A stretch of DNA of 64,000 nt, taken from Eledone cirrhosa (taxonomy: Eukaryota). The DNA lies in assembly GCA_964016885.1 (NCBI GenBank), contig OZ024743.1, forward strand, positions 70,246,001-70,310,000, written 5' to 3'. Each line of letters starts with the position of its first letter. The first letter of the stretch is position 1. The position numbers and the translations under genes were made by a program. The notes under the pieces were generated by a model that worked only from the letters and a program-made list of their open reading frames with translations, did not search any database and had not been told where the DNA came from. This document shows positions 1,430 through 64,000 of this stretch, in pieces.

Positions 1430-2390
1430 TCGTTTTTAACCATCGGGCTTTAACACTGGCTTAAAGTATTTGAAAGTTGCAAAGTTCTTGTGCATGCTGT
1501 TCGGGCAGTGTTCAGAGAGTTTGTTCAGTAGCCGGCCCTTAGCGAATAAAATTTCGTAGCTCTCTGAGATACAAAGGTCGCAGCCCTAGTATCCTCCGTT
1601 GTAAGAGCCCGCTTACTGGAGTATTTTCCATTTAAGCGTGAAGGGGGCGGAGTTTCTTTTGAGGTCCCAAACATAGGAGGCGAGTGTTGTCTGGTTTGAT
1701 TTGTCCGGTCTTCGGAAGGAGTGTGTATGGGCATACCAACGGGTTTTAAAATTATTGCAAGTCATGCCGATGAAAGTTTTTTTGGTATTGCAATCATTGT
1801 TGCCTGAGATGACATCGCATTTGTATACGATATCATTTGTGAGGCATTTGTTTTCAAGTGGGCATGCTTCCTTATTTAGGCAATTACACAAAGCCCCAGT
1901 CTGGGGATTGGGTTCGGAGGTGGTTGGCTTATTTAACTTTTTTAGAATTGTGGTTGGCTATATTCATAGCTAGGTTAGGTGTGGTGGAGTAGGAGAGTCT
2001 TATTGTGTTCTTATTAAAGATGGTGTGGTATCTATGTTGTATGGGGAAGTGTATTTTCAGCAAAGTGAAGAAAATCCTAGCTATCGGTGTGGAGACCTCT
2101 CTATTGAATGGAGGGTTGTACCAGCTAATCTTCCTATGCCTATTCCTCCTCTGCAAACTTGCGGTGGTTTCTAGGTAGGTTATCTTTTCTTTAAATCCGC
2201 TGCGGGCGAGGGTTTCATTGTAGTAGAAGGCAGAGGCGTTAAAAATATCTTTGTTGGCGGAGAGGCCAGATATTCTAATAGAGACGCTTTTTACTAGGTT
2301 ATCAGTGATGTTTTGGGGGTGGTTTGAATTCACATTAATATATCTAAGGGACTCCTTAGGTTTGTAGTACGGGTAATAGAGGGAAGTATC
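1430..2390 (-). mobile_element. 5'-truncated, decayed Penelope-like retroelement (RT C-terminus, linker and GIY-YIG endonuclease)
   Basis: Minus-strand frames give PYYKPKESLRYINVNSNHP..KISWYNPPFN..TIRLSYSTTPN, CNC..CPL..CL..IVYKC..TFIGMT..FKTRW..H..SF..LKWKIL, and after stops CDLCISE..LLNKLSE..FKP. These are PLE GIY-YIG motifs, broken by stops. Confidence 0.9.
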
Positions 2391-2426: not shown

Positions 2427-2622
2427 TAAGAATAAGTCAAGTCTCCGAGGGTTGAGTTCTTGCCGTTTCAACAACTAGTTCCATGTCTGGTACTTGCTAT
2501 TGAAACGGCAAGAGCTCAGCCGTCGGGGTGCTCACTTATTCTTATAGCCATACTATACTACCTCAAGTATTGAGTAATCTGGTGAGTAATGGTCTAACCA
2601 GTTTCTTACTGAATCCATCCCG

Positions 2623-2625
<3 letters not shown>
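2427..2625. mobile_element. PLE-type terminus family A, inverted duplication
   Basis: Imperfect inverted repeat 2427-2544 containing GAAACGGC..GAGCTC..GCCGTC. The tail is homologous to 2795-2875 and it is flanked by (TA)n. Confidence 0.6.
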
Positions 2626-2688
<63 letters not shown>

Positions 2689-2691
<3 letters not shown>

Positions 2692-2875
2692 AACAAGTAA
2701 GACCCCGACGGCTGAGCTCAAGCCGTTTCGACGGCTAATTCTGAATTAGCCGTCGAAACGGCTTGAGCTCAGCCGTCGGGCTCTTTCTTGTTCCTACTAC
2801 CCACTCTACTACCCTAAGTATTGAGTACTTTGGTGCGTTATGGTCCACCTGGTTCCTTACCACGTTTCCTTCGTT
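2689..2875. mobile_element. PLE-type terminus family A, near-perfect ~107-bp palindrome plus tail
   Basis: Palindrome 2689-2795 centred on ctg 2741-2743 (GTTTC-gacggctaatt-ctg-aattagccgtc-GAAAC), between (TA)n tracts. Confidence 0.7.
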
Positions 2876-2895
2876 ATATATATATATATATATTT

Positions 2896-2945
<50 letters not shown>

Positions 2946-3021
2946 CATACATGATGGCTGCCTCCTCCTTATCGAATATGGCCATTCGATGATATAACAT
3001 TTTTAATAATTATCAATTAAT

Positions 3022-3207
3022 TGTTTCTACTTTAGGCACAAGGCCAGCAATTACCCAGTGCATTACTGGTACTTCATTTTATCGACCCCGTAAGGATGAA
3101 AGGCAAAGTTAACCTCGGCATGATTTGAACTCAGACCATAAAGGGCGGTGACTCTATGCTGCAAAGCATGGCGTCCGACCCTCTACCGATACTGCCAATA
3201 CACAGTC
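3022..3207 (-). mobile_element. tRNA-derived SINE family S1
   Basis: A box tggcagtatcgg, B box gttcaaatc, core gcctttcatccttacggggtcgataaaatgaagtacc (Meta-domain-like). 18-bp TSD taataattatcaattaat at 3004-3021 and 3208-3225. Confidence 0.88.
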
Positions 3208-3541
3208 TAATAATTATCAATTAATGCCATCGTGCAATGCCTGTGCATGAAGATTTTTTTTTAAAGTGAGGAATGACTGTGCACTGAGCCAATCCCACTC
3301 TCTGAGTGACAGTAGCTATAACTCGAAAAGAAGAAAAGACCAACATCATCGGTAAATACTGAGCGGCAGGTTTTATTTCGGAGTAATCCCAGTTTCCTGC
3401 GTTTCCTTCTCCTCGAAGAATGCCCTGACAAAGGCTAGGGGTCCTTCACCCAGTGGTTTAAACGTACGATTGTATATCCAGCCTGATTATTATTATATGT
3501 CCCGCGAATATATACACATATGTATACATGTGTATAGATAT

Positions 3542-6995: not shown

Positions 6996-7606
6996 TTATG
7001 CTAATGAAATTTTTATATGATAACAATAGCCTGCTTTCGTTGAATTTTTTTCAATAACAGTAACTACTCTTCTTGTTTTGTCTGATATTGCTAAATTAGA
7101 AAAAAAATTGGTTTAAATATAATTACACAGCCTATCGGCCATGACTGTAGTGGAGGTAAGCGGCCAAACAGGATAACCCTTTCTCGGTCATGCGAGGTAA
7201 TTCACTCAACTGGGTTGACACATATTGCAACACATTCTCTGGTGTAAATATCATCTCTTCCGGCACAAACCCAGACACCACAGCTCTCAATAAATAGAAA
7301 TGAAATATGACTAAATATCTAACCTTCACCTGTTTGTTTGTTGTTTTTTGCGTGTGTCATTTTTGATGTTATTCTTTTTGTGAGATTTCCGTTGTTCTTG
7401 GTCAGGTGATTGCCATTTTCCTCTGCCAAATCGGAATGAGGGAATCTCTCATGAGGAAGAGACCACGGGGCATAGCTGAGATGTATCGTTTTGCTAAGTG
7501 GGTAGAGTTTGTTCCCTTCCTATTTCACTCCTGCATTTTTCTTTCTTTCTTTCTCTCCTTTATTTCTCTCACCTCTCTCTGTTTTTGTCATTATGATATT
7601 CAAATC

Positions 7607-7788
7607 TGGATTGGCAGTATCGGTAGAGAGTCGGACACCATGCTTAGCAGCAAAGAGTTACGGCCCTTTATGATCTGCGTTCAAATCCCGCCGAGGTTAA
7701 CTTTGCCTTTCATCCTTACGGGGTCGATAAAATAAAGTACCAGTAATGTACTTGGATAATTGCTGACCTTGTGCCAAAAGTAGAAACA
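7607..7788 (+). mobile_element. SINE family S1
   Basis: Full consensus with TSD attatgatatt(c/t)aaatct. Confidence 0.88.
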
Positions 7789-7984
7789 ATTATGATATTT
7801 AAATCTAATTTTATACGAGGTTCTCTAAAAAACATATGTTTATGTTTATATATGTGTTGATGAAGAAACTATGTATTATATTGACTCTCATATAACGACT
7901 ATCTCGTGTAATGACAGCTCAGACGACTGTTATCGTAGGTAGGTCAGCTAACACTGCGCTTTGATAAAACCGTTGGGTATCACC

Positions 7985-9529: not shown

Positions 9530-9745
9530 TTCGACAGGTTTGCAGTCGAGCCCATAGCAGTTGAGACTTCTTGTGCCATTGGTCCTAGGACCACCTCCCT
9601 ACACACCACCATCGGCATGGAGTTGGCTACTTACAGGTGTGAGACCCGCGAGTTAGAATGGCTTTTTCAGCGCGACTCCCTCACCATCCTCTGGAGAAAC
9701 ACTTTCTCTCTTCTGTCCGTCGGGGCTTCGGGGCGGCGAATGTGT
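9530..9745 (+). mobile_element. CRE-type element 3' fragment
   Basis: Homologous to 26705-26900 (ELATYRCETRELEWLFQR). Confidence 0.75.
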
Positions 9746-18715: not shown

Positions 18716-19206
18716 AACAAATAGTAGAAAGGAAAATTGTTTCACTAGAAAATGTTGAAGAGATTTTTTTCAGTGAGATGTCAAAACATTAATTTATTTA
18801 CAATACCGGTTTCAGCATTATATGCATTGTCAATTGCGGATATGCAGAAGATTGTTAAGTTGCATATTTATACAAATAGTGATAATAATGAAGAAATGAA
18901 GATAAAACAACCAAGTTATAAGCAGAGTAGGATGGACAGAGAAATGAACTCTCTTCTCTGAATGAACATGTATGTGAAAATTAATTTTTCTTCCCCTTTT
19001 TATTTTCATTTTCTTCATTTCTTCATTATTATCACTATTTGTATAAATATGCAACTTAACAATCTTCTGCATATCCGCAATTGACAATGCATATAATGCT
19101 GAAACCGCTATTGTAAATAAATGAATGTTTTTACATCTCACTGAAAAAAATCTCTTCAACATTTTCTACTGAACGAATCTTTTTCCTTTCTACTATTTGT
19201 TTATAT
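18712..19206. repeat. Long inverted repeat (~195-bp arms, ~95-bp spacer), probably PLE-derived
   Basis: 18712-18908 is near-identical to the reverse complement of ~19000-19206 (the same peptide appears on both strands in the ORF track). It is flanked by (TA)n. Confidence 0.8.
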
Positions 19207-20309: not shown

Positions 20310-20440
20310 CAGTTAGACTTGCAAAACCAAATCCAGCTATGTACTCGATACTTGGGAAAGTAGAGTGTATTTATAGCTGAAAGGTAGAGCCCGACGGCTG
20401 AGCTCACTCCGTTGAAACGGCGTAAGCTCAGACGTCGGGC
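20310..20440. mobile_element. PLE-type terminus family A, diverged
   Basis: Inverted repeat gcccgacggctgagct..gaaacgg..agctcagacgtcgggc at 20389-20440, with the family tail on the minus strand. Confidence 0.55.
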
Positions 20441-21461: not shown

Positions 21462-21513
<52 letters not shown>

Positions 21514-21595
21514 ATAATAATAAAATTGAAGACTAAAATCCAAAGAGGGCTCGATAAGGAAAATATATATCAAATATATAAAAACCGTAGAGCAA

Positions 21596-21900
21596 ATATT
21601 TATTAAAATAACAGATTAAAGTTTAAGCAAAGAATCGCTGCTTTCACCCTTAACGGGATCTTCTGAAACTAACAAAGTCAATCTGTAAACGCAGAACTGG
21701 ACATTTCAAAAAACGTTGCAACCGGAGGAAGACAGGAAGACGATACTTTCAGGAGTTTTAGGTATGTTTTCCTGCTTGGTACGGGTATGTTCTTTGTAGA
21801 AATATTCAGATGTTGTTTCTGCATGATGAATATAAATCAGTAGAGTGCTCAACTGCAGCGATTCTTTGCTTAAACTTTAATCTGTTATTTTAATAAATAT
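21596..21900. mobile_element. PLE-type terminus family B with short inverted arm
   Basis: 21855-21900 is the reverse complement of 21596-21641. It carries the hammerhead-like motif and is homologous to 3990-4125, 31378-31452 and 32145-32250. Confidence 0.6.
21611..21686 (-). ncRNA. Hammerhead-like motif, PLE terminus family B (CAGAAGA core variant)
   Basis: Minus strand reads acagatt..agttt-CAGAAGA-t-ccc-gttaa-ggg-t-GAAA-gca-gcgattctt-tgc-TT-aaact..aatctgt. All three stems pair. Other copies lie at 4040-4115 (+), 31391-31450 (-) and 32160-32235 (-). Confidence 0.62.
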
Positions 21901-22012
21901 ATATATATATATATATATAAGAAGATCTTAACTGTTCAAGTTTTTCCAGGAAAAACTTGAACCGTTAAGATCTTCTTCCGGGTTATGTCAATATTTATAA
22001 AACAAACTTTGT

Positions 22013-22070
22013 ATTATATCTGATGAGAGCGTACCAAAGTTTTGGTACCATGGAAATATATATGATAGAA
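22013..22070 (+). ncRNA. Degenerate hammerhead-like motif
   Basis: CTGATGA..gtaccaaa-gt-tttggtac..GAAA-tata. There is an 8-bp stem II, but the stem I/III register is imperfect. Confidence 0.35.
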
Positions 22071-22133
22071 TAAATATGGTTTTATAAATATAGGTTCCAT
22101 TTATTTAATATCATTGAATATATATATATATAT

Positions 22134-22310
22134 GAAAATGTCCAAGACCCCGCGACGGCAGGGCTCAAGCGGTTTCGACGGCTATTTCAGAAATAACCGT
22201 CAAAACGACCTGAGCTCTGCCGTCGGGGTCTTGAACATTTTCCTATTACCCACTCTACTACCCAAAGTATTGAGTACACTGGTGCGTTAAGGTCCACCTG
22301 GTTCCGCCAG
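22134..22310. mobile_element. PLE-type terminus family A, inverted duplication
   Basis: Palindrome ~22134-22241 centred on gacggctattt-cag-aaataaccgtc, followed by the tail cccactctactaccc..agtattgagtac..ggtccacctggttcc as in 2795-2875. Confidence 0.65.
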
Positions 22311-24745: not shown

Positions 24746-25020
24746 ATTGCACCAGATTGCATATCTAACTAGATTGGTCAACTCCTCATTTGAGAGCTAA
24801 CGTAGACACGCCTTCTCTTTTAATCAGATTCTATAGATACATTGGTGTAGTTGGTGGAGTGCCAGAACAATTAATATGTCGGATAGAATGCTTTGCAGCA
24901 TTTATTCCGGTTCACTGGGCATTGAGTTCAAATCCTGCCGAGGCCAAATTTACGCTTCACAGTTTCGAGATCGATAAAAAAATTAACACTTCTGTATAGT
25001 ATTGAGTTGATATTTCCACT

Positions 25021-25289
<269 letters not shown>

Positions 25290-26930
25290 CGATAGTATTA
25301 CTTTCCCGGCCATTACTTGTGACACCTTGGCTACTAGGGTCCAAGAGTGCCACCCTTTGGTACCCCTCCTGTTCGCCCTTGGTATTGACCACATCGCCCG
25401 GAGTATCACGGCCCCTCTCAACGTTTGGTATCTGGATGATGCTACATGGGCGGACCCGTACGGACGGTCTGCCAAGACCTTCAATCGGTGATTCCTGCCC
25501 TGGCGGGAATCGGCCTCCAGGTCAACTCGGCCAAGTCGGAGGTGGTGAACGTCAGCCCCGATGCTGCGAGCTTTGCAGCCTCCGTCTTGGACGTGCGGTC
25601 CATTCTCCGCCAGGTTCAGGTGACCCCCAAAGAGGATGTCCTCATCCTCGGTTCACAGATCCACCCGCTTGCGATCCGCTCCACCATCAGGTCCAAACTT
25701 CATCATGTTCCAGACTCTCCCGAGCCGACTGGGCTTGATTGACGGCCACCCAGCTCTCTTTCTGCTGAGGAACTACTTCGCCATGCCGAAGCTCCTCTAT
25801 ACACTCCGCAGCGCTCCATGCTACACCCAGACATCTCTCCTCGCTAACCTCGATACTTGTATCCGAGCAGCTGTCGAGGGGATATGCAACGTCAAGTTTG
25901 ACGACATAGGGTGGCAACAGGCCACTTTACCGGTCAGGTATGGCGGCCTAGGCCTCCAGTCCCCGATCTCACTAGCTTTGCCGGCGTATCTTTCGTCGGT
26001 AACCTCGTGCCGCGACCTCGTCAGCAGGGTTCTTCAAAACACATCAGGACCCTCTGTGTTCAGAGAACGTGAGGCCGCCTGTGAGACGTGGGACCGGCTG
26101 GGACTTAGCCCAGTAGACGTCCTCCTCCCCCCCCCCCCCCCTGTTGACGTCAAGTCCCCCCAACGCACTTGAAATGTCATCCAGTACAGCCTGGCCTCAG
26201 ACAGGCTCACGCGCCAGCTCGACCACAACCGCCTTGCTTATTTTCGTGCGGCCTCCAAACCTCACAGTGATGCCTGGCTCTATGCGCTGCCCTCCTTCTC
26301 CACTAGCACGCAGTTAGACAACCATAGCCTGGCGAATCGGCGTTTCCCTGAGGCTCGGCCTCCGGATCTGCCAGCCACACCAATGTCACTGCGGTTCCAC
26401 CGTGGACTCTGTCGGCCTCCACCCGCTTTCCTGTCGCCACAATGCCTGCCGCATTCCACGCCATACTGCCCTCAACGAGGTCATTAAGCATGGCTTGGAA
26501 GCTGCAGGCTTCCCTTCTCAGCTCGAGCCGATGGGGCTGGATCGAGATGACGGCAAAAGGCCAGATGGCATGACCATCTTGCCGTTCTGCGATGGCAAAC
26601 CCCTCGTCTGGGATGCCACTTGCACCGACACTTTCTGTAGCCGCAATCTGGTGCAGTCTGCGACTGACCCAAGTTCTGCTGCACGGTCAAATACAGGTCG
26701 CTCTCCGACAGGTTTCGTTCCCCTGGCAGTGGAAACTTCTGGTGTCCTCAACCCCAGGGCTACCTCCTTACTCACTACCATAGGCGCTGAGCTGGCCAGC
26801 CATAGGTGTGAGCCCCGCGAGTTGGAGTTTGTTTTCCAGCGCGTGACCCTTGCCGTCCTCCGGGGAAACGCCTTCTCCATTCTGTCCGCCGAGGCTGTGG
26901 GTGGGCCCCATCGCGTACCAATACATTAGT
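25290..26930 (+). mobile_element. 5'-truncated, frameshifted CRE-type non-LTR retrotransposon (RT + restriction-like endonuclease)
   Basis: RVQECHPLVPLLFALGID..PLNVWYLDD (RT 4-5), IGLQVNSAKSE, ILG, QATLPVRYGGLGL, zinc knuckle CHCG..HPLSC, RH..LN, RPDG..WDATCTDT..FVPLAVET. The sequence is GC-rich relative to its flanks. Confidence 0.88.
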
Positions 26931-31931: not shown

Positions 31932-32083
31932 TAACAAAGGAATTGTGGTAAGGAACCAGATGGACCATAACGCACCAGAGTACTCAATACTTAGGGTAGT
32001 AGGGTGTGAAATAGGAAAAAGTATGACCCCGATTGCAGAGCTCAAGCTTGAGCTCTGCCGTCGAGGTCATACTTTTTCCTATA
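31932..32083. mobile_element. PLE-type terminus family A, inverted duplication
   Basis: Palindrome 32011-32082 centred on gagctc-aagctt-gagctc, tail on the minus strand, flanked by (TA)n. Confidence 0.65.
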
Positions 32084-33730: not shown

Positions 33731-33810
33731 TGGCAGCAAATATTGTTTTCTATCATTCTTGGCTGCAAAGATAACAATTTTTATTATTATTATTATTCTC
33801 CTATTTACTA

Positions 33811-34214
33811 GGGTGGTGGATTGGCAGTATCGGTAGAGGATCGGACGCCATTCTTTGCAGCATAGAGTTCTGGCCCTTTATGATCTGAGTTAAAATCCCG
33901 CCAAGGTTAACTTTGCCTTTCATCCTTACGGGGTCGATAAAATGAAGTACCAGTCACGCACTTTCTCCAAAATTGCTGGCCTTGTGACTATATCAGAAAC
34001 CATTATTATCATATTTACTAGGGTGGTGGATTCGCAGTATCGGTAGACGGTCGCACGCCATGCTTTGCAGCAAAGAGTTACGGCCATTTATGGTCTGAGT
34101 TCAAATGCCGCCGAGATTAACTTTGCCTTTTATCCTTACGGGGTCGATAAAATAAAGTACCAGTAACACACTGGGATAATTGCTGGCCTTGTGCCAAAAG
34201 TAGAAACAATTATT
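33811..34214 (+). mobile_element. Tandem pair of S1 SINEs
   Basis: Copies start at 33811 and 34021. tatttacta occurs before, between and after them. Confidence 0.88.
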
Positions 34215-34279
34215 ATCTTATTTACTAACAAACCTATTCGCAAATATTAGCTCAATATTTAGTATTGTTCGTAAACTGT

Positions 34280-38575: not shown

Positions 38576-38992
38576 ACATTGTGGAATAATAAGGTATATT
38601 TTCTTTTGGTCGTTTTGGAAGCCTCAACAATGCAGATGGCTAATTCTCCGAGTAAAAAGATCTGGTGGTGGAGAGAGAGATGTAAGGGAGTGTAGAATGA
38701 GATGTATAGTGTGTAGAGGAACGTAGGAAAGAGCGTAAAAAATAAAAACAATAACACGAGATAGAGTTACCTTGGGAGAGATTTAATTGTACCTATATTT
38801 TGGATTCACATCCATCAACTGGGGGGTGGGGGCTTTCCGGGGGGGGGGGGGGGGGGGGGGGGTTATGTCGGAGAAGAGCGATACGTGTCCTCTGCTGTTC
38901 GCTGTTTTGAATATCAGATATTCGAAACAACGAACAGCAGAGGACACGTATTAGCCATCTGCATTGTTGAGGCATCCAAAACGACCAAAAGA

Positions 38993-38995
<3 letters not shown>
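38576..38995. repeat. Nested inverted repeats, probably PLE termini
   Basis: Outer arms ~38601-38644 and 38950-38993. Inner palindrome 38882-38950 centred on gaatatc-a-gatattc-GAAAC. Confidence 0.65.
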
Positions 38996-39743: not shown

Positions 39744-39776
<33 letters not shown>

Positions 39777-39891
39777 TAATAAAAGGAATTCCAACTTTGT
39801 CTGATTTACTCGTTTTATTTACAATCCTTTAAAATTTATAATGGTATTAGAATGAAATAGTATGGTAGAATATTAAACGTTAAGTGTTAAT

Positions 39892-39930
39892 TGAACAAGT
39901 ACTTTCATGCTTTCGCAATCTTCAGGTTCA
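39892..39930 (-). ncRNA. Minimal type I hammerhead ribozyme (PLE-type)
   Basis: Minus strand reads tgaac-CTGAAGA-t-tgc-gaaa-gca-t-GAAA-gtac-TT-gttca. Stem I is 5 bp, stem II has a GAAA loop, and stem III is 1 bp with a palindromic GTAC loop. The core is intact. Confidence 0.8.
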
Positions 39931-39992
39931 TAATGTGTGGTGACAGTCAAGTTTGCAATTTTCAACTGTAATGAGATGGATAAATTTGGTGC

Positions 39993-40090
39993 CTTATATA
40001 CAGTGAAAAGTGGCTCCAGAATACTAAATCTTGCAAACTGTATTTCGACCAATCGGTGTGTAGTTTCACTGGAGTACTAAAGCTGATTGG
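39993..40090 (-). promoter_or_regulatory. Candidate Pol II promoter (CCAAT boxes and TATA) upstream of the hammerhead
   Basis: Minus-strand TATATAAG at 39993-40000, with CCAAT motifs at 40049-40053 (+) and 40086-40090 (-). Motif evidence only. Confidence 0.35.
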
Positions 40091-41046
40091 TTTAGGCGTC
40101 ACGGTTGGTTGAGCATGTCTAACGACTACTAATTGACCCTATTGAAAGCATGAAAGTACTTGTTCAATTAACACTTAACATTTAATATTCTACCATACTA
40201 TTTCATTCTAATACCATTATACATTTTAAAGGGTTGTAAATAAAACGAGAAAATCAGACAAAGTTGGAATTCCTTTTATTAATATAATCTTCTATACCCA
40301 ATCATACACACTCATGTATTTTTATCTATCTATCTATCTATCTAAAATAAAGTTAAATAAAAGTCAAAATGATTAAAATTTAGCTTCGTTTATTACTGCT
40401 ATATATATATTTGAGTGACAGCCATCCTTGGCTGTGACCTCTTCAGGCAGTTTGAATTAGTATAGTATAGACAAGTACATATGTTGTTTAGGTGTATAAT
40501 ATTGTCAATACTCTGATATGCCCAGTTCCTTGTTTGGTTGTTAATTCACTGACGAACTGGAGTCATATGAATTCAAACGAACGAATTTCAGTGTCAAAGG
40601 TCCCCTTCTCCTCTCATTGGTCAGTTATTAGAACATTCCTCATTCTAAGTGTTGTTATTGTTGGAGTTAGCTTAAAAATTGATAAAATGGTAGAGGGGAC
40701 AAGGTGTTAAAGGAACAAAATAACAAGAAAAGTGTCAAACTTCCCATTGGTCAGTTCTGCGAGCATTCCTCAGTCAGAAGTCTATAGAATCCTTTCTGGG
40801 GTGAGGCTCCCTGTAGTGTTTTTGCCTGCTATTGTTCAGTACATTTGACCTCCACCATTATTTTGGTACTGTTGTTGGTGTAGTGGTCAGCTTATATCTT
40901 GCTGCTGCTAACAATTTAGAAGCATCATTTGACTTTTATTTAACTTTATTTTACAATACTCCGGAGTAGCCAAACCAACCTGCGGACTTCGTCGAGTGCT
41001 CCAGCCTGCATATTGAGGTGTTGGTATACAACCAACATAAACTCAA

Positions 41047-42492: not shown

Positions 42493-42815
42493 CATACACA
42501 CATACAGACATCCTCAGGGAAGTGACGTAATGCAGACAGCCAGACATACAGACAGATATTATAAGGGCGCGACGTTATATGTATGTATCTATCTAAAAAG
42601 AGAAAGACTAAGAATTATAGAGAGAGATCTCTAAATCGCCTACTGCGGTCCCTAGAGCATTGAAAATTTGAAATTTGTTTTACTCAGAACACTCCCTGAA
42701 ACATAAGTATTACATGTGTAAAGTTTGAAAATAGTCGGTTGGGTACTTCTCGAATTTTAGGGATTCAAACTCACACACACACACAGACAGACATCCTCAG
42801 TTTTACATATATAGA
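41873..42815 (-). mobile_element. Non-autonomous Helitron
   Basis: Minus strand A|TCTATATATG..GTCTGTCTGT.. ends CCCGTGGAACGCCGGG (hairpin)-TACCACTG-CTAG|T. It has 5'-TC, 3'-CTAG, an AT target and no TSD. Internal repeats cacctaatgcgggccctagg are present. Confidence 0.8.
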
Positions 42816-43180
42816 TAATTGTTTCTACTTTTGGCACAAAGCCAGCAATTATTCCCGTGTATTACCGGTACTTTATTTTATCGACCCCGTAACGATGAAA
42901 GGCAAAGTTAACCTCGGCGGGATTTGAACTCAGAATGACAAGAACCGTAACTCCATGCGTCAAAGCATAGTGTCCGACCCTCTACCGATACTGCCAATAA
43001 TTGTGTTTACTTTTGGCACAAGGCCAGCAATTATACCAGTGTATTACTGGTACTTTATTTTATCGACTCCGTAAGGATGAAAGGCAAAGTTAACCTCGGC
43101 GGGATTTGAACTCAAACCGTAAAGGGACGTAACTCTATGCTACAAAGCATGGCGTTCGATCCTCTACTAATACTGCCAAT
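42816..43180 (-). mobile_element. Tandem pair of S1 SINEs
   Basis: Two head-to-tail consensus copies. Confidence 0.85.
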
Positions 43181-43334
43181 AATGCTACGAAGAAAGCGGT
43201 GAGTTGACTGAGTCTTTAACACATTGGATAAAATGAGCTTATAGTATTATTTCCATGTCTCTGTATCACGAATTCAAATCCCATAGTGGTCAACTTTGCA
43301 TTTCATCATTTCAACCTTGACGTCACTCCATATT

Positions 43335-45160: not shown

Positions 45161-45925
45161 ATTTTCAGTACCAGTAATAAAGTACCAGTAATGTACTGGG
45201 ATAATTGCTGGCCTTGTGCCAAAAAGTAGAAACAATTAATTTTCAGTTGACTATTTACCTCACAGTAAGGAATATAAAGTGAAATCTAGAGATTTAAACC
45301 AAATGAGTAATTCTGTATTTTTTAAAGAAATTATCTGGAAATATTGGGGTAACTAGGCAAAGAACGTATTCTGTAAATGTATCTGTAAGTGGAACCGTGA
45401 AAATCTGCAAACATTTTCTGGAATGTAAGATGCAACAATTTACTGGTGTTGCTATCTACATTCCTGTGATAGAGTTTTCTTTCTTTGTTAGGAAAGAAAT
45501 CATTCTTTTATGGGGAAGAATTCAAAGCATTAAAGATTAATAAAACATTAAAAAAACGCATGTATAGATATATATTTGTTTGTGTGTTGTGTGTACGTGA
45601 GGCTGGAGACGGTGGGGGGACTGCGCGTGTATGCAAGTAGTTGTACATATATATATACATGCAAGTATACCGCGGGTTCCTCTCTCTCCATCTCTCTCTC
45701 TTCTCCCATTCCTCTCCTCTCTCTCATTCTCGCTTGTCTCGCTCTCTTTATATATATATATATATAAATGGAAAAAAATGAAACGAAATTTCATTTCTCA
45801 CTCTTAGTACGGCGGTTACTTAAATATGAGTATGTATACGTACATACATATATGTATACAGACGTACAGTAGTATGTATATATATACTGTACGTCTGTAT
45901 ACATATATGAATGTACGTATATATA

Positions 45926-46854: not shown

Positions 46855-47272
46855 ACACATATATGCATACATACGTATAAACATATATGCCTCTCATACA
46901 TACATACATTCATACATACAAACATTCATTCATACATACATACATATATGTAGGGTGGCAGGGAGGTTGTGAATTGGCAGATAGCGGACTTTATGGAACG
47001 AATGCAGCAAGGTTGAGGGAGAATATCTGATGGGAATATACTCTATACTGTACATATGCTACGGTCTCACATATGTCATATTGTGAGAAGAACAACTTGA
47101 ATTAGCTGAAATTATCCGTGTGGTTAGGAAACAAAAGATCTCTCAGGTTATATAGAGATATAATAGGAGTGGGGTTGTTTCAAATAGGTAATATTGAGAG
47201 ATGAAAACCTTGAAATAACTGAGATTATCCATGTGCTTAGGGCAGAAAAACTCCCTCGGAATTTACAGAAAT

Positions 47273-47667
47273 ATAATTGTTTCTACTTTTGGCACAAGGC
47301 CAGCTATTATCCCAGTGCATTACTGGTACTTTATTTTATCGACCCCGTAAGGATGAAAGGCAAAGTTAACCTCGGCGGGATTTGAACTCAGAATGGCAAG
47401 GGCCGTAACTCTATGCCTCAAAGCATGGCGTGCGACCCTCTATCGATACTGCCAATCCACCACCCTAGAGAAATATAATTGTTTCTACTTTTGGCACAAG
47501 GCCAGCAAATACCCAGTTCATTACTGGTACTTTACTTTATCAACCCCGTAAGGATGAAAGGCAAAGTTAACCTCGGCGGGATTTGAACTCAGAATGGCAA
47601 GGGCCGTAACTCTATGCGTCAAAGCATGGCGTCCGACCCTCTACCGATACTGCCAATCCACCGCCCT
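47273..47667 (-). mobile_element. Tandem pair of S1 SINEs
   Basis: Two full copies. agaaatataat occurs before, between and after them. Confidence 0.88.
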
Positions 47668-47892
47668 AGAGAAATATAATGAATATATGCAAGGTATTTA
47701 TTCCGATAGGGAAGGGTACCACATTTAATATAGAGAGCTTAAAATTTTGAATAATCGTTGTGATTATGAGACCCTAAGAATATATATAGAGAGAAGCAAA
47801 ATATCACCCAAGGGTATTTAAAATCAAACGGAAACAAAATCAGCCAATCAAAATGTTTTGAAAATATAGACAATGCAGATTGAACTGGATCC

Positions 47893-56019: not shown

Positions 56020-56522
<503 letters not shown>

Positions 56523-56983: not shown

Positions 56984-56985
56984 TG

Positions 56986-57180
56986 TATAAAAGTTTTAAT
57001 ATAGAAGAGGTTCTACGGGACTAGAACTGTTTCATTCGTGAGAAAAACCTGATGATTTCTCACGAATGAAGCAGTTCTAGTCCTGTAGAAGCTCTTCTAT
57101 ATTAAAACTGTTATACTCTGCTATGTAATGAGTACCTTACTTACTGTGGTTACCTCCGATTCAACCCGGAATAACTTATA
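56986..57180. mobile_element. PLE-type terminus with inverted duplication at a hammerhead core
   Basis: Arms 56986-57045 and ~57056-57115 flank aacCTGATGA. The arm consensus is ttctcacgaat-GAAAC-agttcta-GTC. Confidence 0.6.
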
Positions 57181-60522: not shown

Positions 60523-60528
<6 letters not shown>

Positions 60529-61130
60529 ACTTGGGGAGGTTCATATTGTTGTAATAATATTGCCAGAATTAATAACAGAACACAGTCACTGTTTGGTTGG
60601 ATTTCGGTTCTGTATCTTTTATATCAGTTAATTCATTCGGTCCTCAGTGTTTATCATTGACTGACCAACGGTCAAAAATACAGATATAATATAGATAATA
60701 CACATATATATAGTCTAACAAAGTTCTTTCGTTGCACATCTGCAACATCGTCAGTGGTGCTATTATATTCCTCCTGCGTATTTATGCCATCTTTATTTAA
60801 TCTGTTGCAATCTTTATTTAATTTAATCTGTACACCATCTTTATTTAAACGATGCTGCAGATGTACAACGAAAGAACTTTGTTAGACTATATATATGTGT
60901 TTATATCTATATTATATCTGTATTTTTGACCGTTGGTCAGTCAATGGTAAACATTGAGGACCGAATGAATTAACTGATATAAAAGATACAGAAGCGAAAA
61001 CCAATCAAACAGAGAGTGTGTTCTGTAATTAATTCTGGCAATATTATTACAACAATATGACCCTCCCCAAGTATAACAATATTTGTTTCGACACACGATT
61101 TCATATCAAAAACCTCGCAAAACAAATATA
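60523..61130. mobile_element. Inverted pair of a dispersed (TA)n-associated repeat (family E, probably PLE)
   Basis: 60523-60752 is inverted at 60848-61078. Further copies lie at 56535-56790, 32675-32755 and 11840-11868. Confidence 0.65.
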
Positions 61131-62690: not shown

Positions 62691-63803
62691 TCACGAGGAA
62701 AACATCTCTGACTTTTTATTTAGGAGGTTTAGTTTCGAAAAGATTATAGTATGGGTCTCTAGAAGACAGAGGTTACAAAATGTATTCGGTGGTTTATACG
62801 ATGCAGTCCTAGCTACTACTTCCCATTGAAGTGTATATGTTCTATTCATAGTTTTCAGACAGTGTATGTAGCTAGATAGTGAAGTGGAGTTAGCTAGATT
62901 TTGTTTTTTTTTGAAAGATTGGAGGTGTGAGTTGTATCTTGTCTTGAAGTAGTTCGAAGTAGAGCCAATATATGTTTTAGAAGTGTTGTCTTTGTTGACC
63001 GTGCAGGAGTAAATGATTTCTTTGATTAAGCAATTATTACTTAATGGGCAAGTTCTATTTGATCTACAGTTACATTTATTTTGGATGTTATCTTGCCGGT
63101 TATTATGTTGTGTAGAAGTCTGGTTGTTATTGATTTCATTAGTGTTATTACTATTATTACTATTGCTACTAGGGTTTGTAGTTATTATGTTGTTCTGTAA
63201 GTTTACCTCCTGCTGTGTTTTAATTAGTTGGAAATAATTATTAATCTTCCTTTTATTACTACTAGCTATATGGTATGCTATGTTAGGTGTGGTAGAGTAA
63301 GAGATTTTAATGGTGTTTTTATTTATAAGATTATGGTATTTGTGGCCAGATGGGAAGTTTTTTTCTAGGATTGGGAAGAAAGTCTTGGGTAAGTTGGTAG
63401 AGACGTTTAGATTGAAAGGAGGATTGAAGAATGTTTTAGTTCTTCTTCTATTTTTATTTTTTGTAATATCTATTGAGGTATTTCTGTTTATAATATTATT
63501 GTGGTGTTTACTTTGGTGCGAGTTAAGTTTGATATTACCGTTCGTATTAGAGTAAGAGTGGCTAGTACTCTTATTATTTTTCCTCATGGCCATATTGTGA
63601 GAAATAATGCTGTAACTATGTGATTTTATAGGTAGGAATTCAATCCCATTTTTATGGCCTGATTTAGCTAATGCCTGATTATAGTATTGGAAATTATTGT
63701 TATATATGGTTTCGTTATATGATAGATTAGAGATTCTATTAGATATTCCTTTAGTGATTGAGTTTAATATGGATTTAGGGTGGTTAGACTTGGTATCCCA
63801 CAT
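62691..63803 (-). pseudogene. PLE polyprotein C-terminal part with GIY-YIG endonuclease
   Basis: Motifs SNHP, FFNPPFN, KISYSTTPN, CNCR..CPL..CL..IIYSC..TYIGST..FKTRY..H..SF, CNLCLLE, LLNKKSE. The frame is disrupted upstream and the ORF-track start is not a real start. Confidence 0.88.
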
Positions 63804-64000
63804 AAATTAGTTTTTCGTTAGGTTTATGAAAGGGTGTATATATTTTAGAGTCTAGGTAAAGGGTAGCATCAAGGAAGTTAACATTTTTAGTGTTTTTGTC
63901 TAAGGTGATACTTAAGTAGGAGTTTTTGAAAATGTTATGTAATAGTTTCCTAGTTCTTTCTATATTAAATTGTTTATAGTCTATAAGGAGTAGTGCATCA

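What the first reader, a model, noticed from the sequence alone, without database searches (positions are those of the whole stretch)
2689..2875. Palindromic PLE-type insertions fold back inside a hammerhead ribozyme (recurrent across unrelated families)
Seen: many short (TA)n-embedded elements are inverted duplications with the architecture arm-GTTTC-[hairpin]-GAAAC-arm. Here GAAAC-GGCT-tgagctc-AGCC-GTC forms a hammerhead stem III plus GUC site, and the symmetry axis is the would-be stem II loop, so the CUGANGA strand is missing. The turning point falls in or next to a hammerhead at 22134-22241, 2427-2544, 20389-20440, 32011-32082 (loop III palindrome), 21918-21978, 38882-38950, 56986-57115, 40144 (loop II) and 21855 (start of stem III). 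Established: PLEs carry hammerheads in pseudo-LTRs and often have inverted termini. Inference: the ribozyme hairpins are preferred sites of RT stalling and cDNA self-priming or template switching, which generate these MITE-like palindromes. I am not aware of this breakpoint bias being described.
Basis: partly seen in the sequence, partly recalled or inferred. Interest (0 to 1): 0.75.

Follow-up and report, generated by a model that had tools for sequence, protein, structure and literature searches.

The report
Penelope stubs mark RNA start site
This palindrome is one of more than 11,000 tiny head-to-head insertions of a Penelope-type jumping gene, and their joints pile up at one base inside the element's ribozyme most likely because the element's RNA begins there and two copying reactions run off its end, not because the ribozyme hairpin stalls the enzyme.

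Summary
The palindrome is real: a 185-bp stub (two head-to-head arms plus a one-sided 80-bp tail) in (TA)n, from a 3.5-kb Hydra-clade Penelope-like element. At least 11,299 such stubs exist. Their junctions differ from copy to copy (53 kinds in 66) but hit a sharp wall: 19,728 arms reach the A of AGTCCAG and only 4,858 pass six bases further. The wall lies in loop II of a true hammerhead whose core is the U3-A8 variant, so 'inside a hammerhead' is right for this family. The cause proposed is not: arms that pass the wall read through stem II (22 of 25), either arm may carry the tail, and other families have their wall 5 to 80 bases upstream of an intact hammerhead. A TATA-like box at -29 to -33, a conserved initiator-like AGT, and untemplated G and T-runs at the wall point to run-off of two target-primed cDNAs at the RNA start. 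No RNA data could test this. Other agents of this scan reached the same reading on other DNA of this genome; I found no paper that states it.

The parts
2627..2689 (.). (TA)n target, left
   Evidence: sequence; 30 of 30 top copies lie in (TA)n
2690..2743 (-). Tailless inverted arm, positions +5 to +58 of the element (+1 = A of the wall); inferred cDNA primed at the first initiation site
   Evidence: parent map
2742..2743 (.). Head-to-head junction (+5 joined to +7, one shared base)
   Evidence: this junction type occurs 248 + 232 times, about 5% of 9,443
2743..2794 (+). Sense arm, positions +7 to +58
2743..2782 (+). 3' half of a type I hammerhead: 3' strand of stem II (to 2754), GAAA (2755-2758), stem III (to 2776), predicted cut after 2777, 3' strand of stem I; cannot form the ribozyme alone
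   Evidence: alignment and pair counts on long copies
2795..2874 (+). 80-bp tail on one side only (+59 to +138), the stretch between the two inferred RT start sites; in the parent both sites are followed by TAT
   Evidence: 0 of 72 copies have two tails; parent continuation
2875..2892 (.). (TA)n target, right
   Evidence: sequence
2427..2625 (+). Older relative of the same superfamily, arms 77% complementary, sense arm starts at about +2
20341..20440 (.). Diverged relative, arms trimmed to about +14
22134..22305 (+). Sister subfamily stub, junction at 22189 (about +5/+7), centre CAG on the tail strand
31934..32082 (-). Sister subfamily stub trimmed to +25 on both arms, joined at a short self-complementary word
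21919..22110 (+). Another PLE family (D): junction at 21948, intact hammerhead from 22020, 72 bases downstream; counter-example to the hairpin model
56985..57177 (+). Another PLE family (B): junction at the core, sense arm keeps CTGATGA at 57049; family wall 6 bases upstream of the core
39773..40285 (.). Another PLE family (F): long arm with intact hammerhead (minus strand, 39925), short arm from 40144; family wall 43 bases upstream of the core
38601..38995 (.). Family C: junction at 38916 where long copies read CTC|AGAT; no hammerhead found
21501..21900 (.). Family E: long arm with a degenerate core, short arm from 21855; family wall about 5 bases upstream of the core

Best explanation
The feature is a 185-bp head-to-head stub of a 3.5-kb Hydra-clade Penelope-like retrotransposon, likely made when both cut ends of a (TA)n target each primed a cDNA near the front of the element's RNA and both cDNAs ran off the RNA's 5' end, which is predicted to be a transcription start inside loop II of the hammerhead. 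Steps. Shown: the parent, its ORF and its hammerhead; two fixed outer ends 80 bases apart; one tail per insertion; a sharp inner wall at -4..+1; junctions that differ from copy to copy. From the literature: PLE protein cuts and extends both strands and starts RT at two internal sites (PMC11167929, in vitro); pLTRs hold the promoter (PMC2377424). Inferred: the two start sites, which normally act in the 3' pLTR and give long 5'-truncated arms, also exist 58 and 138 bases from the start of the transcript; when they are used there, RT runs out of template, often adds a C opposite the cap or a run of A, and the two cDNA ends are trimmed and joined by end-joining repair. The joint falls in the ribozyme only because this family's promoter lies there; a transcript that starts at +1 lacks the catalytic core and would not self-cleave.
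For: Wall: 19,728 arms reach +1 and 4,858 reach -6; in a full census of the first 100 rows, 72 arms stop at the wall and 28 go on (script 74/26, two rows re-filed by eye); 1 of 132 parsed arm ends in stubs lies beyond -4. Read-through: 22 of 25 arms that pass -6 also pass stem II and the core. Promoter marks: AGT at +1..+3 is invariant in 14 of 14 long copies inside an otherwise variable loop, preceded by two pyrimidines in 52 of 54; TATWWAW at -29 in 29 of 41 long copies with one other hit in 120 bases, and at -29..-33 in family B (4 of 4) and F (3 of 3), whose walls were fixed before that search. Run-off marks: G directly before +1 in 15 of 72 short arms, 8 not explained by the partner arm (by eye), against 1 of 54 long copies; runs of about 16 and 17 A or T right at +1 in two loci where parents have at most three T; L314 shows C then five A on one cDNA. 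Two primers: 0 of 72 copies with two tails; centre independent of tail side; the subfamily marker is the same in both arms in 69 of 72. Coupling: among 18 census loci with a long arm mapped, 11 have a long partner, 2 have a partner cut inside the tail, 5 have none in the region, and none has a partner that stops at the wall. Template is the ORF-bearing RNA: L278 runs from +1 into the ORF to +257. Other families have walls at their own distance from the core: B -6 (16 of 16 arms at or inside it), E about -5, F -43 (5 of 11), H1 -61..-72 (7 of 17), G -69..-72 (5 of 11), D1 -72..-80 (5 of 17).
Against: No RNA end was observed; the start site is inferred from DNA. The initiator consensus is weak evidence alone: TYAKTY matches 11 times in the last 500 bases of the unit. 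No TATA-like box at -30 in sister family A2 (0 of 26), G (0 of 4), D1 (0 of 3) or E (1 of 16). Many A-runs of 2-3 bases can be templated by the TTT before +1, so the start may be -4, +1 or both. Most walls also read as YAG, a splice acceptor, and the Drosophila Penelope intron ends at helix I (PMC4209133). No full-length copy that begins at +1 was seen; the five full-length units seen (L208, L264-L266, L279) continue upstream into a tandem copy, but they were picked by an upstream motif. Samples for the other families are small (9-28 arms) and their 5' ends come from BLAST limits. L278's two inner joints are identical, so its T-runs may be inherited from a template.
Confidence: 0.72

Rival explanations
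1. Same two-primer mechanism, but the RNA end at the wall is made by processing (a splicing intermediate at a 3' splice site, or a nuclease cut in loop II), not by transcription start.
For: Walls of A, B, C, D1, E and F read pyrimidine-rich YAG; the D. virilis intron ends at the 5' end of helix I (PMC4209133), where walls B and E lie.
Against: Arms keep the AG (30 and 16 of 144 ends at +1 and +2) where a spliced end would start at +3; no common upstream exon or leader appears in 72 short arms; TATA-like boxes sit at -29..-33; family G has no AG at its wall.
Confidence: 0.12
2. One reading: RT stalls at hammerhead hairpins and the cDNA self-primes or switches template there.
For: For this family and for B and E the joints do fall in or beside the ribozyme; short internal repeats bias some deeper joints; self-priming was proposed for PLE inverted junctions (PMC3846280).
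Against: 22 of 25 arms that pass the wall cross stem II and the core; families D, F, G and H1 copy the whole hammerhead and stop 43-80 bases beyond it; snap-back would keep a fixed loop and give one polarity, whereas junctions vary and tail side is independent of the centre; arms joined to foreign DNA or another family stop at the same base (L131, L294).
Confidence: 0.07
3. Self-priming on an antisense transcript makes the head-to-head palindromes (Arkhipova et al. 2013).
For: Explains head-to-head polarity with one RNA and is the published reading (PMC3846280, discussion read).
Against: Does not predict two fixed outer ends 80 bases apart with one tail per insertion, a wall at a sense-strand promoter, or untemplated bases on both arms at the wall (L310, L312, L314). 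In vitro the protein extends both target strands on a sense RNA (PMC11167929).
Confidence: 0.04
4. A fixed palindromic non-autonomous element (MITE-like) is copied as a unit, or perfect palindromes are inserted and later lose their centres by cruciform breakage.
For: The best DNA hits share one centre; long perfect palindromes are known to be unstable at the centre (recalled).
Against: That centre is about 5% of copies; 53 junction kinds in 66; the major subfamily variants occur in both long and short copies, which are equally young (1.3% and 1.2% private differences); non-palindromic joins stop at the same base.
Confidence: 0.04

Closest known systems
Hydra clade of C-terminal-endonuclease Penelope-like elements (Craig et al. 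2021, PMC8557442; passages and section 11 read)
   Same: DKT motif, RWR for RWK, CxCX5C linker, C-terminal GIY-YIG-type domain, single ORF, (TA)n targets, hammerhead in the pLTR.
   Different: Unit is 3.5 kb (paper: generally under 3 kb); hammerhead core is U3-A8; the paper does not describe a dominant stub class or a fixed 5' wall in the passages read.
PLE insertion unit with inverted 5'-truncated pLTR and one-sided tail (PMC3846280, passages and discussion read; PMC8557442 Fig. 2 legend)
   Same: Head-to-head arms, optional tail, microhomology at 5' joints; TATA and Inr-like words noted in a rotifer pLTR.
   Different: Tail is 80 bases, not 30-40; here both arms are under 140 bases and end at one base; the paper explains junction palindromes by self-priming on an antisense RNA.
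Poseidon PAc in vitro system (Frangieh et al. 2024, PMC11167929; parts 1-2 of 4 read)
   Same: Both strands cut and extended, two internal RT start sites that define the tail, uncleaved RNA as main template, 5'-shortened templates give shorter products.
   Different: Different clade; no genomic stub class or transcription start mapped in the parts read.
Penelope of Drosophila virilis promoter (Schostak et al. 2008, PMC2377424; parts 2-3 of 4 read)
   Same: Promoter and RNA start lie in the pLTR, upstream of the tail.
   Different: There the start (371) lies about 120 bases before the hammerhead and is TATA-less; here the inferred start is inside the ribozyme with a TATA-like box.
U3-A8 hammerhead variant of Schistosoma Cercyon PLEs (Cervera and de la Pena 2014, PMC4209133; parts 1-2 of 4 read)
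   Same: Type I, U3-A8 core pair, long helix II, short helix I, G10.1-C11.1.
   Different: Here helix III is 5-6 bp with a 7-base loop, so it could fold as a monomer.
L1 twin priming and retroviral strong-stop DNA (recalled, no call)
   Same: Two target-primed cDNAs give an inversion; a short cDNA runs off the RNA 5' end.
   Different: L1 has one fixed 3' start and a random internal one; strong-stop DNA is transferred, not integrated.

Membership tests
Penelope-like element, Hydra clade | Single ORF with RT then C-terminal GIY-YIG endonuclease | tested here: met
   YRDDG catalytic motif then YIG...R motif in parent copies. Pfam gave no RT or GIY-YIG hit for 5 parent pieces and a weak GIY-YIG hit (E 0.04) for a related window fragment, so this rests on motifs.
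Penelope-like element, Hydra clade | DKT, RWK-type motif, CxCX5C linker | tested here: met
   DKT in L266, RLRWR near the N-terminus, CNCPDRSSC in L275, against PMC8557442 section 11.
Penelope-like element, Hydra clade | Placement in an RT tree with named Hydra elements; absence of the CCHH motif | not tested
   No reference sequences were fetched.
Penelope-like element, Hydra clade | Partial tandems (pLTR), inverted 5'-truncated copy, one-sided tail, (TA)n target | tested here: met
Type I hammerhead ribozyme (long copies) | Core boxes with a 3-8 pair, GAAA, UH site | tested here: met
   U3-A8 in 48 of 54 copies; 5 have C3 with A8 (mismatch), 1 other. Canonical CTGANGA: 13 genome hits, none a parent.
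Type I hammerhead ribozyme (long copies) | Three helices supported by covariation | tested here: met
   3 compensatory pairs in stem II; none in stems I and III; related sequences, so few independent events.
Type I hammerhead ribozyme (long copies) | Self-cleavage | not testable with these tools
   Indirect only: arms starting at +41/+42 in 5 of 28 short-class loci against 6.6% expected (p 0.03).
Type I hammerhead ribozyme (the stub itself) | Complete core on one strand | tested here: not met
   Core 5' box, 5' strands of stems I and II are absent.
MITE (non-autonomous DNA transposon) | Uniform length and terminal inverted repeats at both ends | tested here: not met
   Centres vary, and the tail makes the ends asymmetric.
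Non-LTR retrozyme | Tandem non-coding units, each with a whole hammerhead | tested here: not met
   Stubs are head-to-head and lack the core; definition from 10.64898/2026.07.22.740005 (part 1 of 5 read).
RNA polymerase II start site | Capped RNA 5' ends at the base | not testable with these tools
   No RNA holder listed.
RNA polymerase II start site | TATA at about -30 and initiator at +1 | tested here: inconclusive
   Present in A1, B, F; TATA absent in A2, G, D1, E; initiator words are common nearby.

The most novel reading that the evidence does not exclude
The stubs are a genomic 5'-end map of PLE RNAs. They would show that Hydra-clade elements copy a capped sense RNA twice from two linked start sites, and that this family has moved its promoter inside its own ribozyme, so that transcripts made from its own promoter cannot self-cleave while read-through transcripts can. 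A second, smaller pile-up of arms at the predicted cut (+42) would then be a record of hammerhead cleavage in living germ cells.
Probability: 0.35. Interest if true: 0.75.

Novelty: new variant of a known kind. Interest (0 to 1): 0.5.

Why it matters
How PLEs make their inverted and tandem insertions, which RNA strand they copy, and what the hammerhead does are stated as open in PMC3846280, PMC8557442 and PMC11167929. Tens of thousands of independent junctions with a one-base wall give a direct, cheap test: each family's wall predicts its RNA start, and the +42 class predicts where the ribozyme cuts in vivo. It also warns that such palindromes are not MITEs and that their centres say nothing about ribozyme hairpins. 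The insertion form itself (inverted pLTR with tail) is long known, and this scan has noted the same pattern several times in this genome.

Tried and rejected
1. Fixed palindromic master with a flipping centre (my first idea, note 1): the 248:232 split fitted it, but one search showed that centres differ in nearly every copy. 2. Searching for the parent with CTGANGA: 13 hits, all stubs or inter-family chimeras; the parent was found only through sister family A2. 3. Reading L092's flank copy as a join to foreign DNA: it is a long parent copy. 4. Reading all A-runs as untemplated: most parents have TTT before +1, so only runs of four or more and the G class count. 5. One search placed 13 ends at -4; 8 of these were artefacts of a mismatch-tolerant walk and the rest are ambiguous microhomologies; re-parsed them (6 of 72 loci could not be parsed and were left out). 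6. Rfam: nothing useful. Pfam: no RT hit. 7. The window's own PLE ORF fragment (62691-63806) belongs to another family. 8. RNA: no RNA holder listed. Contigs of four coded runs show a 20- to 30-fold step in summed depth at the wall in two runs, but the tool states that such depth cannot rank parts of a stretch, so it is not used. 9. In one search the references for B2, D2 and G were faulty (microsatellite or palindromic flank); B2 and D2 rows were dropped, and one false row in G is not counted among its 5. 10. Paper searches found no report of a stub class ending at the RNA start; subscription journals, Repbase reports and the supplements of the papers read were not seen and may describe it.

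Full report
What is there. Window 2690-2874 is a 105-bp near-perfect palindrome followed by an 80-bp tail, between (TA)n arrays. A DNA search of the own genome returned 40 scored copies at 96-100% identity with the same ends. A pattern anchored only on the outer ends found 9,443 copies with a palindrome of 90-120 bp and 1,856 with 60-89 bp; these exact-match counts are lower bounds. Positions below are counted from the A of AGTCCAG (+1).

The junctions are independent events. The 100 rows shown have nearly all different centres. Of 72 fetched copies, 66 could be parsed and gave 53 junction kinds: 30 with microhomology, 21 with inserted bases, 15 blunt. The window's centre type makes up 480 copies, split 248 to 232 by which strand carries the tail (p = 0.49). 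None of the 72 has two tails. A subfamily marker is the same in both arms in 69 of 72.

The parent. A search for CTGANGA upstream of the motif gave 13 hits, none a parent. A sister family showed a different core, and a pattern built on it found 394 long copies. Tandem copies give a 3,500-bp unit whose ORF starts about 228 bases after +1 and carries DKT, RWR, YRDDG, CxCX5C and a C-terminal YIG motif, the marks of the Hydra clade in PMC8557442 (section 11). Pfam did not recognise the pieces. In the parent, both outer ends of the stub are followed by TAT, which fits priming by a (TA)n end. Short and long copies share the main subfamily variants and are equally young.

The hammerhead is real but non-canonical. 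In 54 long copies the core reads TTGATAA (36), TTGAGAA (12), CTGA(G/T)AA (5) or other (1). U3-A8 is a described PLE variant (PMC4209133). On 14 diverse copies the three-helix structure has 89.8% of cells paired and three compensatory pairs in stem II; partners slid by 1-3 columns give 24-48%. The stub holds only the 3' half.

The wall. Genome-wide, 19,728 arms contain +1..+19 exactly and 4,858 also contain -6..-1. I fetched every one of the first 100 rows: 72 arms stop at the wall and 28 go on (two rows re-filed by eye). Of 132 parsed arm ends in stubs, 54 lie at -4..+2, one lies beyond -4, and the rest tail off downstream; that set was chosen by length, so the unselected sample matters more: in 834 kb of fixed blocks, 34 of 43 distinct arms start at -5..+10 and two go further up (9 duplicate rows removed).

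Why not the hairpin. RT moving along the RNA meets stem II at its base near +18; the wall is 18 bases further, in the loop. Of 25 arms that pass -6, 22 also pass the 5' strand of stem II and the core. Arms joined to foreign DNA or to another family stop at the same base (L131, L294). Other families have walls at other places relative to the first base of the core: B -6, E about -5, F -43, H1 -61..-72, G -69..-72, D1 -72..-80 (11-17 arms each). Their arms keep the whole ribozyme.

Why an RNA start. AGT at +1..+3 is invariant in a variable loop and follows two pyrimidines in 52 of 54 copies. A TATA-like word lies at -29 in 29 of 41 long copies, and at -29..-33 in families B and F, but not in A2, G, D1 or most of E. 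G stands directly before +1 in 15 of 72 short arms, 8 of them not explained by the partner arm, against 1 of 54 long copies (by eye); a C added opposite a cap would give this (recalled for L1 and retroviral RTs). In 2,854 loci both arms reach +1 within 1-14 bases of each other, and the 100 rows shown are dominated by A-runs facing T-runs. Runs of two or three can be templated, which allows a second start at -4; runs of four to about 17 cannot. Untemplated addition at template ends and template jumping are known for R2 RT (PMC8857657, passages). Against this: initiator-like words are common nearby, most walls also read as splice acceptors, and no RNA could be examined.

Two linked primers. PAc protein extends both target strands from two internal RNA sites (PMC11167929). 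Here long arms pair with long arms: 11 of 18 census loci mapped, with no partner that stops at the wall. So both cDNAs of one insertion likely start in the same pLTR copy: in the 3' pLTR or a read-through RNA they give long arms, and at the front of a transcript they give stubs. L278 runs from +1 to +257, into the ORF, so the template is not a 138-base RNA.

A minor class at the ribozyme cut. Among short palindromes, arms starting at +41/+42 occur in 5 of 28 loci against 6.6% in a flat null with microhomology (p 0.03). By eye about 19 of 97 loci are of this kind; a cautious 15 gives p 0.002. This suggests that some templates are cleaved, but G-runs make the parse ambiguous.

What is known. The inverted pLTR with a one-sided tail is standard for PLEs (PMC3846280, PMC8557442, PMC8969392 passages). 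The published reading of junction palindromes is self-priming on an antisense RNA (PMC3846280, discussion). Nine paper searches found no report of stubs that end at the RNA start; supplements and closed journals were not seen. Earlier AI notes of this scan report twin priming and run-off at a start site on other DNA of this genome. I had written both ideas in notes before those calls; the notes are not independent support.

Verdict. The hairpin-stalling explanation does not. Best reading: twin target-primed run-off at the RNA 5' end, most likely a transcription start inside the ribozyme (0.72). New variant of a known kind; interest 0.5.

Noticed in passing
L278:251-969 (G000:C1, 27.009 Mb): Three 257-base units (+1 to +257) in tandem behind a stub junction, the two inner joints identical with five T: a template jump, a small circle or a nascent non-autonomous repeat.
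   Followed up: partly
L280, L285, L291, L294: One abundant subfamily has C3 with A8, a mismatch predicted to silence the ribozyme, yet it spread widely.
   Followed up: no
L032, L034, L036, L037, L102, L213, L294: Insertions whose two arms, or successive parts, come from different PLE families, often joined near the wall; suggests different RNAs on the two target ends or template jumps.
   Followed up: partly
tails of families A, B, D, G: Unrelated families share an ACTC...GAGT(A/G)CT word pair in the tail, just after the first outer end.
   Followed up: no
L125:1193-1563 and L126:1197-1563: Two loci 274 kb apart share the same inverted junction; a duplicated or re-transposed palindrome.
   Followed up: no
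window 3004-3226, 7589-7803, 33792-34227, 42802-43183, 47264-47685 and others: A very common repeat of about 190 bases at 85-95% identity, partly in tandem pairs; looks SINE-like.
   Followed up: no
window 24926-26929: GC-rich broken non-LTR retrotransposon fragment with a KRPDG...WDATC motif of the restriction-like endonuclease type (label recalled; no Pfam hit); related pieces at 9532, 24387, 44575, 58587.
   Followed up: no
window 1613-2390 (-) and 62691-63806 (-): Broken PLE ORF fragments of other families; 87,800 first-look candidates in the genome for the second.
   Followed up: partly
window 38601-38995; L080, L373, L060: Family C, about 400 bases, has the PLE-type tail and a wall at CTC|AGAT but no hammerhead found.
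   Followed up: partly
window 18716-19201, 45839-45917, 56020-56175, 60524-61077: Further long inverted repeats, not examined.
   Followed up: no
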